From sequence record OR525698.1: 64,000 nt of DNA; one strand, 5' to 3'. A model generated the notes under the pieces. It had not been told where the DNA came from. It did no database searches and worked only from the letters and a program-made list of their open reading frames with translations. Below are positions 44,137 through 48,183 of the stretch, piece by piece. Every line of letters starts with the position of its first letter. Position 1 is the first letter of the stretch. The position numbers and the translations under genes are program-made. The stretch comes from Escherichia phage vB-Eco-KMB43.

Positions 44137-45160
44137 TTACAGATTCAGAAGTGAGTCCAGGTCATCCAGATCAGAAGCGGAGGAAGTACCGCCACCCAGA
44201 TCCAGCGATGCCATCAGGTCATCAGCGGAAGAATCTAACGCCGTGCTAGCTGCGTTAATACCAACTACAGTGCTAGCTGCGGTAATACCAGAATCGAATG
44301 CATTCATCTGTGCGTCAAAATCGTCAAGCTGGCTGTTAATCGCTGCCGCAGCACTGGAAGCCGCAGCGCCAGCTACCATAGAAACGCCCATAGTTTTCTT
44401 AAATTTGGTTTCCAGTTCATCGAACGGTTTAAACTGGCTAGGCGCTACAATCTCACCCAGATCAACCATGTTTTCCATCAGATATTTCTGATATGCTTCG
44501 TCTTCAATTTTCGGAAGCTGTGATTGCTGCATGAAACGAGAATCATCATAGTTCTGGTGTTTATCAACCTTCTTAGCTTTCAGGAGGAAGTTAGCACCGG
44601 AGAACACACAAGTTACATCTACCGGAACTTCGCCCATGTCGGTATTCACGTTCACCATTGCAACGATCTTATCATAAATTTTCTGACCGAAGCGGAATTT
44701 GAATACCTTACCTTCATTTTCTGGTGCTTGAGGATCTTTCAGTACCAGAATATTTGCGTAGTAAGACGCTTTACGCTTAATCAGTTGCCATTCGGTTTTA
44801 TCGGTATTGTACAGGTCTTTTTCGTTAATATATTTGCACACAGGGCAAGAATCAAAATCACCGTGGGTGCTGGAGCAGTTTTCCCAATACCATTTGCCAT
44901 TAACTTTGAAGGAATGGTTTACCAGTTTCACAATCGGCAGACCGTCTTCTGTCTTAGACGGCAGGAAGCGAATCAGGGCTTCACCGTTACCTGCTGCATC
45001 AGTCTTAATCTTCCACTCTTTCGGATCTTCTTTGGAGAAACCGTTGCCACCTTTCAGTGTTAATCTTCCACTCTTTCGGATCTTCTTTGGAGAAACCGTT
45101 GCCACCTTTCAGTGAGGCCAGTTGAGCTTGCAGTTTGGAAGAATCTTGGCGTTTAAACAT
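44137..45160 (-). CDS. 32: gp32 single-stranded DNA-binding protein; reading frame broken near the 5' end by a 55-bp tandem duplication
   Basis: From ATG 45158-45160: [33 protein letters not shown] (T4: [33 protein letters not shown]), then frameshift and stop at 45005-45007; main frame (44137-45105) carries the rest of gp32 including zinc-site residues [10 protein letters not shown]. Confidence 0.85.
45005..45114. repeat. perfect 55-bp tandem duplication (2 copies) inside the gene 32 N-terminal coding region
   Basis: 45005-45059 and 45060-45114 identical: TTAATCTTCCACTCTTTCGGATCTTCTTTGGAGAAACCGTTGCCACCTTTCAGTG. Confidence 0.95.
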
Positions 45161-45193
45161 ATTCACTATTCCTTCTTTTGATTAATTTACTAG

Positions 45194-45226
45194 ACTATTA
45201 TACAGATTTAAATTTACTTGTCAACT
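45194..45226 (-). promoter_or_regulatory. sigma70-like promoter upstream of gene 32
   Basis: Reverse complement TTGACA-N16/17-TATAAT about 35 nt upstream of the gene 32 ATG; overlaps the 3' end of gene 59. Confidence 0.55.
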
Positions 45227-45910: not shown

Positions 45911-46180
45911 TTAAATATCGAGAGTGTTGGTCGGTTCGTCGATCACTCCCTTCCTGAGCGTTCTATTTACTATACATTCTTGTGTGATCTTGTCAATAAT
46001 GGACACCGGAATATATTTCTGATAGTGACCATATTCGATAGAGTTTTCCTCTACAAACTGAGTGGTCGCTTCAAGATAAGTCAATCCCTCTTCAACAACC
46101 AGTTTTTCGATTGCAAGACCGTTTGCTGTTTTATTCGCGGCTTTTACCGCATGTTCATTAAGCATTGAACACCCGATCAT
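45911..46180 (-). CDS. 33: gp33 late-transcription co-activator
   Basis: ...EEGLTYLEATTQFVEENSIE...YIPVSIIDKI... matches T4 gp33 (...EEFGMSYLEATTAFLEENSIPE...FIPSGIIEKI...). Confidence 0.8.
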   Translation of the reverse strand: MIGCSMLNEHAVKAANKTANGLAIEKLVVEEGLTYLEATTQFVEENSIEYGHYQKYIPVSIIDKITQECIVNRTLRKGVIDEPTNTLDI

Positions 46181-46433
46181 AGAGTTCTACCGCTTCATCG
46201 CGTTCTGCTTCGAAGGTTTCGCGCTGTTGCTGGTGATACAGTTTAAACAGAATGCCCCACATTTTACCGTCTACGCCTAATTCTTCTTTAGCACGCTGTT
46301 TGATCTCTTTGATCTTATCGCCGTATGCTTCTTGAATGGTTTTCTGATCGCTGGCTTCTTTAATCAGTTGTGCCAGGGTATTTCCGTGTACATTTTCGTC
46401 AAATACTACTTTTTCTTTTTTCTGTTCAGTCAT
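46158..46433 (-). CDS. dsbA: DsbA dsDNA-binding late-transcription enhancer
   Basis: ...VVFDENVHGNTLAQLIKEASD...RAKEELGVDGKMW...ELYDRVF matches T4 DsbA. Confidence 0.8.
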   Translation of the reverse strand: MTEQKKEKVVFDENVHGNTLAQLIKEASDQKTIQEAYGDKIKEIKQRAKEELGVDGKMWGILFKLYHQQQRETFEAERDEAVELYDRVFNA

Positions 46434-46437
46434 AATA

Positions 46438-47037
46438 TTAACCCTCTTTCGTCATTAATTGAAAACCACGTTCAGCTTTTGAGATTTCGCTAGGACGTAA
46501 ATCGTCACCCACATATTCTAGCATCATTTCTCGGATAATGTCAAGTGCTTTTTCATCACCTGATTTTAACTCGAACTCAAGTTCATAATGAGCAGTGTCG
46601 CCCAATCCTTCGCCTACTTTGCCATAATAGAAAGTGTCTTTGCACATTTCCACTATACCACAACCCATATCTAGAGTCAATGACTTGCGATATGTCATTA
46701 CTTGCATTGTTGTAGTGATATAGTCTGAGTTTACCCCTATACTATCAATAAAATGGACAAACTCATCCCAATTTGAAAATGTAATTTCCTCGCGGTTGAA
46801 TAGTCCAGATTCATTATCACCCATTTTGACCATGATCTCTGATTTTCGACAGTCAAGTCGTGCATAAATTCCTTTTTGACGTAGCGCATGATCTTCGGTA
46901 TCATAATAAAATTCGTGTTTTAGAATGTTATCTCGGTCTAAGAGATTGTATCCGTCATACATTGCCACCCACAAATCACAGATGGTTTCGACGCCAATTT
47001 GTGAGTGTGCATAGTATTTTAATTCAAGTTCTTTCAT
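46438..47037 (-). CDS. CYTH-domain (triphosphate tunnel metalloenzyme-like) protein
   Basis: N-terminal ELELKYY (ExExK-like) and C-terminal HYELEFEL (acidic ExExE-like) bracketing a ~190-aa domain with conserved Arg/Lys positions. Confidence 0.5.
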   Translation of the reverse strand: MKELELKYYAHSQIGVETICDLWVAMYDGYNLLDRDNILKHEFYYDTEDHALRQKGIYARLDCRKSEIMVKMGDNESGLFNREEITFSNWDEFVHFIDSIGVNSDYITTTMQVMTYRKSLTLDMGCGIVEMCKDTFYYGKVGEGLGDTAHYELEFELKSGDEKALDIIREMMLEYVGDDLRPSEISKAERGFQLMTKEG

Positions 47038-47047
47038 ATGTCAACCC

Positions 47048-47995
47048 TTAGAACTCACCAATTTTCTGCAACATTTTAACTAACGCATTTGTTACAAAAT
47101 AGTTATAAATTTTACCGCGTGGTGCTGGTTTAGATTTTTCCCATGACTCCAGAATCTGATTCTGAATATCATCTGGGATGTAATCGAAATCAATAAGTTC
47201 GCGGTTTTCGTCAAATCGTCGTGCTTCTTCCTCTGTCATCAAAGACTTTGGATCTTCGGCATCGAAAATTTGCTCCAACCATTTGGTTGGAACTGGTTTA
47301 GCTCGTTCCCCTTCCAGTCGAGAGATAATGAAATCACTACGACACTTGACAGAAGCCACACCGTCTTTTGCGTCACCCTTAACACATTTTACCATAAGGT
47401 CTTTGTAAGGGCTACCATATTTGCATTTCTTCCATGCTTTCTGTACTGGCGCCCACTGTTTCACATTTTTGTATTTGTGCAACTGTGTGTAGTCACCATC
47501 GCCGGAGTTGATTAGCACCTGACGACCTTCTACAGAAAACTTTTTAGTTAACACAGCGATTATATCATCTGCTTCAACTTTGTCAACCTTAATAACGTGA
47601 TAAGGCATGTTCTCTTTAAACTCTTCGGTGATCTTATTGATCGCAGCAAAGATCATCTCCCAATCACGCGGATCTGCGTCTCGTTTTTCCTTACGGTTGC
47701 GTTTATAGTAAGGTGCGATATCACGTCGCCAGTAACCTTTGCTTGAATCAAAAGCAAGTACCGTGATTGGGTATTGATCTTTGAATTTTGTCATATTATA
47801 ACGCATGGTGTCAAGAATAAGATGACGGATCATGCCTTCATTAATAGGATCTTCCGGTTTAAAGGTATGCGAGATAGTAGCAATCATAAGCTGCGACATA
47901 TCAATCAAATGCACACCTTCCGGCAGTTTATCTTCTGGATCATCAAAGAAATCATTAAGTGTAGCGGTAGTTTTTGTAAACGGGTTATACGTCAT
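47048..47995 (-). CDS. rnh: RNase H (FEN-family 5'-3' exonuclease)
   Basis: VRHLILDTMRYN, KGYWRRDIAPYYKRNR, EADDIIAVLTKKFS, DGDYTQLHKYKNVKQW, DFDYIPD match T4 RNase H. Confidence 0.9.
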   Translation of the reverse strand: MTYNPFTKTTATLNDFFDDPEDKLPEGVHLIDMSQLMIATISHTFKPEDPINEGMIRHLILDTMRYNMTKFKDQYPITVLAFDSSKGYWRRDIAPYYKRNRKEKRDADPRDWEMIFAAINKITEEFKENMPYHVIKVDKVEADDIIAVLTKKFSVEGRQVLINSGDGDYTQLHKYKNVKQWAPVQKAWKKCKYGSPYKDLMVKCVKGDAKDGVASVKCRSDFIISRLEGERAKPVPTKWLEQIFDAEDPKSLMTEEEARRFDENRELIDFDYIPDDIQNQILESWEKSKPAPRGKIYNYFVTNALVKMLQKIGEF

Positions 47996-47997
47996 AA

Positions 47998-48183
47998 TTA
48001 AGTTCTCTCCACTCTCACAACAACAGACTCATCAAACGAGCTAGATACTTCACGATCATACCCGTATTTCTCCATAACTCGCAGAATTGCATTGTTTAGT
48101 TCTGCGCGAAAATAATTGTAATCCTTATCAGGGATTCGGTCAACTACCCATTTTGCACCGTCTGACAAATCAACTTTAACCAT
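47998..48183 (-). CDS. hypothetical protein (61 aa)
   Basis: Intact small ORF abutting rnh. Confidence 0.4.
   Translation of the reverse strand: MVKVDLSDGAKWVVDRIPDKDYNYFRAELNNAILRVMEKYGYDREVSSSFDESVVVRVERT

What the first reader, a model, noticed from the sequence alone, without database searches (positions are those of the whole stretch)
46438..47037. CYTH (triphosphate tunnel metalloenzyme-like) gene between dsbA and rnh
The 199-aa ORF shows N-terminal ExExK-like (ELELKYY) and C-terminal acidic (HYELEFEL) motifs typical of CYTH/TTM enzymes (class IV adenylate cyclases, triphosphatases). It sits in the replication and late-transcription gene block, where T4 has no counterpart that I recall. 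Possible roles include nucleotide signalling or polyphosphate or triphosphate-RNA metabolism.
Basis: inference. Interest (0 to 1): 0.5.

Follow-up and report, generated by a model that had tools for sequence, protein, structure and literature searches.

The report
Phage triphosphate-tunnel (CYTH) enzyme gene
The ORF is a real, conserved gene of RB49-like (Krischvirus) coliphages that encodes a small YgiF-like "triphosphate tunnel" enzyme, most likely a phosphate-cleaving hydrolase and not a cAMP-forming cyclase; the family assignment has been in the literature since 2003-2006, and its role in infection is still untested.

Summary

By published motif rules it is a hydrolase-type TTM, not a class IV adenylate cyclase: there is no room for the HF motif and the second Glu of ExE is kept. 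It has no CHAD domain, and one Arg of the RxR strand is missing, so the substrate (PPPi or an organic triphosphate) is open.

This is not new. The ortholog RB49ORF244c was annotated "similar to ygiF" and listed as a CYTH domain in 2006.

New here:
- The rnh-CYTH-dsbA-33 order holds in relatives down to 31% identity.
- CYTH is always the most diverged gene of the block.
- Within Krischvirus, codons 1-150 are a swapped-allele island (56-84% nt identity against 94-99% in the flanks).
- The tunnel-facing residues stay invariant across these alleles.

No function has been shown. Interest is modest.

The parts
46438..47037 (-). CYTH/TTM gene (199 aa), ortholog of RB49ORF244c
47017..47031 (-). Codons 3-7, the ExExK motif (E3, E5, K7). 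They align with YgiF E4, E6 (metal site 2) and K8.
   Evidence: Invariant in alignments A1 and A2. Alignment to 5a60. Residue roles from PMC4641920.
46570..46584 (-). Codons 152-156, ExExE on strand beta8. E154 aligns with YgiF E160 (metal 1) and E156 with YgiF E162 (metal 2).
   Evidence: E154 conserved in 146/148 and E156 in 147/148 distant CYTH proteins.
46852..46866 (-). Codons 58-62, Y-A-R-L-D. This strand normally carries the RxR motif; one Arg is missing here.
   Evidence: The alignment register is ambiguous (YxRxD, or Y in place of the first Arg).
46588..47037 (-). Codons 1-150, an allele-swapped variable island
   Evidence: Nucleotide identity to RB49 is 84% and to Skers/L006/L008 56%, against 94-99% in the flanks. 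dS is 0.41 to above 2, against 0.07-0.16 in rnh and dsbA.
46438..46587 (-). Codons 151-199 plus the stop codon. This segment is conserved like the flanks. It encodes strand beta8, a helix and the C-terminal plug helix (S186, K187, R190).
   Evidence: 97-99% nucleotide identity in all Krischvirus alleles compared. dS 0.03-0.11.
46515..46544 (-). Sigma-70-like promoter (TTGACA-18-TAGAAT with a TG extension) inside the 3' end of the CYTH ORF, facing dsbA/33
   Evidence: The equivalent place in the 38%-identity relative L010 reads TTGACA-17-TATAAT. Consensus match only; function not shown.
47016..47044 (-). Sigma-70-like promoter (TTGACA-17-TAAAAT) overlapping the start codon and the ExExK codons
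   Evidence: The same TTGACA immediately before the ATG is seen in L010. Consensus match only.
47559..47586 (-). Perfect sigma-70 consensus (12/12, with TG) inside rnh; a candidate early promoter for transcripts covering the CYTH gene
   Evidence: Inference only.
47048..47995 (-). rnh (T4-type RNase H / 5'-3' exonuclease), the upstream neighbour
   Evidence: PF09293 and PF02739.
46158..46433 (-). dsbA (late-transcription dsDNA-binding protein), the downstream neighbour
   Evidence: PF11126.

Best explanation
The gene encodes a stand-alone, single-domain triphosphate tunnel metalloenzyme of the YgiF type. Eight antiparallel strands form a closed tunnel. Basic residues in the tunnel (K7, R60, K71, R82, R117, K187, R190) would hold a triphosphate chain. 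Two Mg2+/Mn2+ ions would be held by E154 (site 1) and by E3/E5/E156 (site 2), and the site-2 metal would activate a water that attacks the terminal phosphate. The predicted chemistry is therefore hydrolysis of a small triphosphate-bearing substrate to a diphosphate plus Pi, not cyclisation to cAMP. By nearest homology the default substrate is inorganic triphosphate (PPPi). The missing Arg of the RxR pair, the conserved Tyr58 and the lack of a CHAD domain leave an organic triphosphate equally possible. The gene is packed in the early/replication block rnh-CYTH-dsbA-33 and is probably transcribed from sigma-70-type early promoters. It is probably an accessory gene rather than an essential one. 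Shown here: fold, family and conservation of the catalytic set. Inferred: activity, substrate, timing and role.
For: Family and fold:
- Pfam CYTH above cut-off.
- The family profile aligns residues 3-195 with residues 6-201 of YgiF chain 5a60.
- HHalign gives 99.9% against 51 distant CYTH proteins.

Catalytic set:
- E3, E5, K7, R60, K71, R82, E84, R117, E152, E154, E156, S186, K187 and R190 are invariant down to 31% identity.
- They match the residues that bind PPPi and two metals in YgiF (PMC4641920).

Selection on the tunnel:
- Within the variable codons 1-150, 23 of 39 tunnel-facing strand positions are invariant, against 2 of 41 outward-facing and 2 of 34 helix positions.
- dN/dS is 0.2-0.3.

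Hydrolase versus cyclase, by the rules of PMC8233210:
- Class IV cyclases need an HF motif four residues before ExExK and have ExA on beta8.
- Here ExExK starts at residue 3 and beta8 reads E154-F-E156.

Operon packing and promoter-like sites.
Against: - No enzyme assay exists for any member, and no literature on its function was found.
- The RxR strand reads Y58-A-R60-L-D62. In the alignment to YgiF, Y58 falls on R56, whose Ala mutant is nearly inactive. In the HHalign and hmmalign register R60 is that Arg and D62 replaces the second Arg. The catalytic set is complete only in the second register.
- YgiF's CHAD domain is absent.
- The specific substrate cannot be read from sequence.
- One isolate (vB_EcoM_G2494) carries the gene split into two ORFs. 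This suggests the gene is dispensable, or it is a sequencing error.
Confidence: 0.7

Rival explanations
1. The enzyme is a counter-defence or host-manipulation enzyme. It would hydrolyse an organic triphosphate, such as an NTP/dNTP or base-modified dNTP, an alarmone such as pppGpp, thiamine triphosphate, or a triphosphate-bearing immune signal. The allele diversity would then reflect an arms race with host factors.
For: - CYTH is the fastest-diverging gene of its block in every comparison: 84 vs 99%, 57 vs 97-100%, 48 vs 79%, 38 vs 75%, 31 vs 65-76%.
- At least five allele classes circulate in almost identical Krischvirus backgrounds.
- The exterior varies while the tunnel is invariant.
- Tyr58 sits, in the HHalign register, where thiamine triphosphatases carry the aromatic residue that stacks on the organic moiety (W/YxRxR).
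- Iyer et al. proposed nucleotide-pool roles for CYTH triphosphatases of jumbo phages (PMC7824862).
Against: - No PADLOC match.
- No paper links TTMs to phage defence or counter-defence.
- dN/dS is below 1, and the high dS points to import of old alleles rather than rapid in-place change.
- Tyr58 is Val or Ile in the more distant phage relatives P0044 and P0045.
- The location is a conserved core block, not a typical accessory hot-spot.
Confidence: 0.18
2. It is a class IV (CyaB-like) adenylate cyclase that raises cAMP in the infected cell. Some GenBank records annotate it this way.
For: - The orthologs in phages AV108 and PHB13 are annotated 'adenylate cyclase'.
- The fold is shared with CyaB (2fjt, 3n10).
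- In one alignment register the first Arg of RxR is replaced, as it is in class IV cyclases.
Against: - Only two residues precede ExExK, so the HFxxxxExExK signature cannot exist.
- The second Glu of ExE is kept (E156), whereas class IV cyclases strictly have Ala there (PMC8233210).
Confidence: 0.04
3. It is an RNA 5'-triphosphatase. It would act on pppRNA ends, either the Okazaki primers that the neighbouring RNase H removes or transcripts, converting them to diphosphate ends.
For: - The gene is adjacent to and co-oriented with rnh and the late-transcription genes, and this order is conserved down to 31% identity.
Against: - No hit to the Cet1-like Pfam family.
- The protein has the YgiF/ThTPase-type C-terminal plug helix (SKAERG aligned with SKAARG). 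From general knowledge of these structures, this helix closes one end of the tunnel and favours small substrates.
- Gene order alone is weak evidence of function in T4-like genomes.
Confidence: 0.06
4. It is a catalytically inactive tunnel protein that only binds (sequesters) a polyphosphorylated ligand or a host protein.
For: One Arg of the RxR pair is lost. In the YgiF register this is the Arg whose mutation abolishes activity.
Against: All four metal-binding glutamates and the ExExK lysine are invariant across the whole phage clade. A pure binder would not need them.
Confidence: 0.02

Closest known systems
E. coli YgiF inorganic triphosphatase, CYTH (TTM) domain, PDB 5a60/5a61
   Different: The phage protein has no linker or CHAD domain (199 aa against 433 aa). 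The RxR strand reads YxRxD. K40 and H150 are specific to the phage clade. No activity has been measured.
RB49ORF244c and its Krischvirus orthologs (PHROG 14893)
   Same: Same gene, same position, 84-99% protein identity. It was already noted as 'similar to ygiF' in GenBank AY343333 and as 'CYTH domain, 0.0026' in Nolan et al. 2006 (PMC1524935).
   Different: Nothing of substance. The window carries the Phi1/FL04-type allele rather than the RB49-type allele.
Single-domain bacterial and archaeal TTM triphosphatases (NeuTTM, CthTTM, SaTTM, BH2851)
   Different: They are shorter (about 150-190 aa), have a complete RxR motif, and share 14-19% identity.
Class IV adenylate cyclase CyaB (YpAC-IV)
   Same: Same superfamily and same fold.
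Mammalian thiamine triphosphatase
   Same: TTM hydrolase with a plug helix. There is an aromatic residue two positions before the first Arg (W/YxRxR), which corresponds to Y58-x-R60 in the HHalign register.
   Different: The second Arg is Asp here. Identity is 15%. The Tyr is not kept in the more distant phage relatives.

Membership tests
CYTH / triphosphate tunnel metalloenzyme superfamily (Pfam PF01928) | Match to the family profile above the curated cut-off | tested here: met
   27.8 bits against a cut-off of 23.2, E 2.6e-6. HHalign 99.9% to 51 distant CYTH proteins.
CYTH / triphosphate tunnel metalloenzyme superfamily (Pfam PF01928) | N-terminal ExExK motif | tested here: met
   E3-L-E5-L-K7, invariant in all relatives.
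CYTH / triphosphate tunnel metalloenzyme superfamily (Pfam PF01928) | Eight-stranded antiparallel beta-barrel tunnel | tested here: met
CYTH / triphosphate tunnel metalloenzyme superfamily (Pfam PF01928) | Acidic ExE on beta8 for metals 1 and 2 | tested here: met
   E154 and E156 align with YgiF E160 and E162.
CYTH / triphosphate tunnel metalloenzyme superfamily (Pfam PF01928) | Basic tunnel residues, including the RxR pair on beta3 | tested here: inconclusive
   K71, R82, R117, K187 and R190 are present. The RxR strand is Y58-A-R60-L-D62, so one Arg is missing, and which one depends on the alignment register.
CYTH / triphosphate tunnel metalloenzyme superfamily (Pfam PF01928) | Divalent-cation-dependent triphosphate hydrolysis | not testable with these tools
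   Needs an enzyme assay.
YgiF-type CYTH-CHAD inorganic triphosphatase | C-terminal CHAD domain | tested here: not met
   The protein is 199 aa and a single domain, with no CHAD hit in Pfam. Distant relatives of about 500 aa do carry CHAD.
YgiF-type CYTH-CHAD inorganic triphosphatase | Catalytic Arg56 (proposed proton donor) | tested here: inconclusive
   It aligns with Y58 in the hmmsearch alignment and with R60 in the HHalign and hmmalign register.
Class IV adenylate cyclase (CyaB-like) | HF motif four residues before ExExK | tested here: not met
   Only M1 and K2 precede E3. Rule from PMC8233210.
Class IV adenylate cyclase (CyaB-like) | Second Glu of ExE replaced by Ala | tested here: not met
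   E156 is present and invariant.
Thiamine triphosphatase | W/YxRxR motif | tested here: inconclusive
   The strand reads YxRxD in one register. The second Arg is absent, and the Tyr is Val or Ile in P0044 and P0045.
Cet1-like RNA triphosphatase (PF02940) | Match to the mRNA_triPase profile | tested here: not met

The most novel reading that the evidence does not exclude
The tunnel enzyme destroys a triphosphate-bearing nucleotide or signal that matters in phage-host conflict. Several anciently diverged alleles of its outer surface are kept in otherwise near-identical Krischvirus genomes, and this would reflect selection to escape a host sensor or inhibitor. That would make it the first TTM-family counter-defence enzyme.
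Probability: 0.1. Interest if true: 0.65.

Novelty: already known. Interest (0 to 1): 0.27.

Why it matters
CYTH/TTM enzymes are ancient and widespread, yet their physiological roles are mostly unknown, even for E. coli YgiF. A virulent phage lineage has kept a minimal version in its replication gene block over deep divergence while shuffling everything except the tunnel lining. That makes it a tractable place to ask what such an enzyme does in vivo. On the practical side, the result corrects the 'adenylate cyclase' annotations in some phage records. As a discovery it is minor, because the domain assignment has been public since 2003-2006.

Tried and rejected
- PADLOC: no hit.
- NCBIfam: only a meaningless 11.7-bit hit to ADP-dependent glucokinase.
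- Single-sequence PDB search: a weak match to 'immunity protein TriTu' (7zhm, E 0.11). It disappeared when the family profile was used, so I treat it as chance.
- IMG/VR scan with the family alignment: only three near-identical loci.
- The afdb50 fold library was not available.
- Five literature searches for phage CYTH/TTM function, counter-defence links or RB49 functional genomics found only the 2006 domain listing and a general remark on jumbo phages.
- The T4-type late promoter motif TATAAATA does not occur upstream of the gene on its strand.
- I tried to settle the beta3 (RxR) register from spacing, hmmalign and HHalign.
- I considered that the variable island reflects rapid in-place evolution. 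I rejected this because synonymous divergence is also 4 to more than 15 times that of the flanks, which points to exchange of old alleles.

Full report
**What is there.** The window comes from a Krischvirus, an RB49-like "pseudo-T-even" coliphage. The 2.3 kb around the finding is 99.8% identical to Krischvirus LF73P4 and phage FL04, and 95-97% identical to Phi1, RB49, JSE and about 50 others. An ATG-started ORF of 199 codons occupies exactly 46438..47037 on the minus strand.

It is wedged between rnh (47048-47995) and dsbA (46158-46433), followed by genes 33, 59 and 32. All are on the same strand and were identified by Pfam. The start codon lies 10 nt after the rnh stop and is preceded by TAAGGG. 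The stop lies 4 nt before the dsbA start.

**Family and fold.**
- Pfam's CYTH model (PF01928) is matched above its gathering score: 27.8 against 23.2 bits, E 2.6e-6, residues 27-191.
- PHROGs places the protein in phrog_14893, "unknown function".
- PADLOC has no match.
- A profile of 18 family members (alignment A1) finds one PDB sequence, E. coli inorganic triphosphatase YgiF. The alignment runs end to end, family positions 3-195 against chain residues 6-201.
- An exhaustive HMMER search of 1.84 billion representatives found only three clusters below 1e-30, all from phages. Behind them is a tail of about 220 distant proteins. Nine of the ten I scanned against Pfam are ordinary CYTH or CYTH-CHAD proteins, or fall just below that cut-off.
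- HHalign between the phage family and 51 of these gives 99.9% probability.
- AlphaFold2 on A1 gave a confident model: pLDDT 91.4, pTM 0.85, eight long strands plus four helices.
- Foldseek against the PDB ranks YgiF first (E 2.4e-12, TM 0.77). It is followed by AtTTM3, HpAC1, BH2851, SaTTM, thiamine triphosphatases and CyaB.

**Catalytic equipment.** I used the alignment to YgiF and the residue roles established by Martinez et al. 2015 (PMC4641920).
- E3 and E5 correspond to YgiF E4 and E6 (metal site 2).
- K7 corresponds to K8.
- E154 corresponds to E160 (metal site 1).
- E156 corresponds to E162 (metal site 2).
- K71, R82/E84, R117 and the C-terminal S186-K187-x-x-R190-G191 helix also have direct counterparts.

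All of these are invariant in the phage clade down to 31% identity. They are also near-universal among 148 distant CYTH proteins.

**Hydrolase or cyclase.** Vogt et al. 2021 (PMC8233210) give three motif rules. True class IV adenylate cyclases carry an HF motif four residues before ExExK, and on beta8 they have ExA rather than ExE. Here ExExK starts at residue 3, so an HF motif cannot exist, and the second Glu (E156) is kept. By those rules the protein is a hydrolytic TTM. The "adenylate cyclase" label carried by some orthologs (AV108, PHB13) is not supported. "Inorganic triphosphatase" (the Makalu phages) is the better of the existing labels.

**Departures from YgiF.**
- There is no CHAD domain.
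- The strand that normally carries R-x-R reads Y58-A-R60-L-D62.
- The hmmsearch alignment to YgiF is gapless through the following hairpin and puts Y58 on Arg56. That is the residue whose Ala mutant is nearly inactive. It puts R60 on Arg58.
- hmmalign of most distant homologs, and HHalign, instead put R60 on the first Arg, D62 on the second, and Y58 on the position where thiamine triphosphatases have their stacking Trp/Tyr.
- The phage clade has three fewer residues between the conserved Asp46 and Arg82 than most relatives (36 against 39).
- Either way one Arg is missing, and K40 and H150 are specific to the clade.

I therefore leave the substrate open between PPPi and an organic triphosphate.

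**Distribution and synteny.** In 50,697 phage records the family occurs only in the 58 Krischvirus genomes. The same set is recovered with the window protein and with metagenomic relatives of 38% and 31% identity.

Metagenomic relatives at 59%, 48%, 38% and 31% identity (P0042-P0045) all sit in the same place. They lie directly upstream of dsbA and gene 33 and, where the contig reaches far enough, directly downstream of rnh. The nearest non-phage relatives are an archaeal stand-alone CYTH next to a PRK-family kinase gene and a bacterial one next to a Mur ligase gene.

**Evolutionary pattern (new here).** In every comparison CYTH is far more diverged than its neighbours.

| Compared with | CYTH identity | Neighbour identity |
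|---|---|---|
| RB49 | 84% | 99% |
| Skers | 57% | 97-100% (rnh, dsbA); gp33 94% |
| L006 | 59% | 93-96% |
| L009 | 48% | 78-80% |
| L010 | 38% | 74-75% |
| L011 | 31% | 65-76% |

Within Krischvirus the divergence is confined to codons 1-150.
- Nucleotide identity there is 84% to RB49 and 56% to Skers, L006 and L008.
- rnh, codons 151-199 and dsbA/33 stay at 94-99%.
- Synonymous divergence in the island is 0.41 (RB49) to above 2 (Skers), against 0.07-0.16 in rnh and dsbA. dN/dS is 0.2-0.3.

So these are old alleles exchanged by recombination, with breakpoints at the start codon and near codon 150. This is not in-place acceleration, and each allele is under purifying selection.

Inside the island, 23 of 39 strand positions on the tunnel-facing parity are invariant. 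Only 2 of 41 outward-facing positions and 2 of 34 helix positions are. The parity of each strand was set from the known catalytic residues, so that is one binary choice per strand; the alternating conservation pattern itself is plain in the alignment. The tunnel is what selection keeps, and the exterior is free or diversified.

One isolate, vB_EcoM_G2494, has the gene split into 66- and 130-codon ORFs. That is either a sequencing error or a sign that the gene is dispensable.

**Expression.** The consensus scan finds twice as many sigma-70-type sites as in shuffles, mostly on the gene's strand.
- A perfect 12/12 site lies inside rnh (47586-47559).
- One overlaps the CYTH start (47044-47016).
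- One lies inside the conserved 3' end (46544-46515), facing dsbA.

The last has a perfect TTGACA-17-TATAAT counterpart in the 38%-identity relative L010, despite different amino acids there. The TTGACA before the ATG is also shared. No T4-type late promoter box lies upstream on this strand. I infer early transcription together with the replication genes. None of this has been shown.

**Mechanism and role.** The best-supported reading is a two-metal TTM phosphohydrolase that removes the terminal phosphate from a small triphosphate substrate. PPPi is the default candidate because YgiF is by far the closest characterised relative.
- Shown here: family, predicted fold, the conserved catalytic set, purifying selection on the tunnel.
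- Inferred: activity, substrate, timing of expression.
- Unknown: the physiological role.

The rivals are:
- an organic-triphosphate or conflict enzyme, favoured by the allele diversity and Tyr58 but lacking any direct support;
- an RNA 5'-triphosphatase, suggested by the fold family and the rnh neighbourhood, but with a YgiF-type plug helix and no Cet1 profile match;
- a class IV cyclase, which fails two of three motif tests;
- an inert binder, which is unlikely given the invariant metal ligands.

**Novelty.** The ortholog RB49ORF244c carries the GenBank note "similar to ... ygiF". It is listed as "CYTH domain, 0.0026" in Nolan et al. 2006 (PMC1524935). The public protein collection already tags most members with PF01928. 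Iyer et al. 2021 note CYTH triphosphatases scattered among jumbo phages (PMC7824862). No experimental work on the phage enzyme was found. The finding is therefore already known as an annotation.

What this analysis adds:
- the structural confirmation;
- the case against the cyclase label;
- the missing Arg of the RxR pair;
- the conserved synteny;
- the allele-swapped island with an invariant tunnel.

Interest is modest (0.27). The most novel reading still open, a TTM counter-defence enzyme, I put at about 10%.

Noticed in passing
window 46588-47037 against flanks 45911-46587 and 47048-47995: There is a sharp mosaic boundary. Codons 1-150 of the CYTH gene are 56-84% identical in DNA between Krischvirus genomes whose flanks, and the last 49 codons of the same gene, are 94-99% identical. 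dS in the island is 4 to more than 15 times that of the neighbours.
   Followed up: yes
window 46515-46544 (-) and L010 about 512-540: A sigma-70-like promoter lies inside the 3' end of the CYTH ORF and faces dsbA. In a 38%-identity relative the same place is a perfect TTGACA-17-TATAAT although the encoded amino acids differ. This suggests a conserved internal early promoter for dsbA/33.
   Followed up: partly
window 47016-47044 (-): TTGACA lies immediately before the CYTH ATG, and TAAAAT is formed by the Leu-Lys-Tyr codons of the ExExK motif. Together they make an 11/12 promoter match whose transcripts would start inside the ORF. The same arrangement is seen in L010. Its purpose is unknown.
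   Followed up: partly
L015 601-1196 (phage vB_EcoM_G2494, MK327935): The CYTH ortholog is annotated as two ORFs of 66 and 130 codons. This is a frameshift or a sequencing error, and it is the only disrupted copy among the 58 records.
   Followed up: partly
L002 5802-6398 (phage Skers): An HNH homing endonuclease gene sits between genes 59 and 32 in Skers. The window has only about 115 nt of intergenic DNA at that place (45106-45220).
   Followed up: no
L012/L013 4797-6606: The nearest non-phage relative (P0046) appears archaeal by context (Sec61-beta and RIO1 genes nearby). It lies directly after a PRK-family kinase gene, which echoes the kinase-TTM fusion of plant TTM1/2.
   Followed up: no
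window 47998-48183 (-): A 61-codon ORF upstream of rnh (the counterpart of RB49ORF246c) is conserved in all Krischvirus loci looked at. It has no family assignment.
   Followed up: no
window 47161-47220 (inside rnh): A short patch in the 3' part of rnh drops to 75% identity against Skers, while the rest of rnh is 93-100% identical. It is possibly a second small recombination patch.
   Followed up: no
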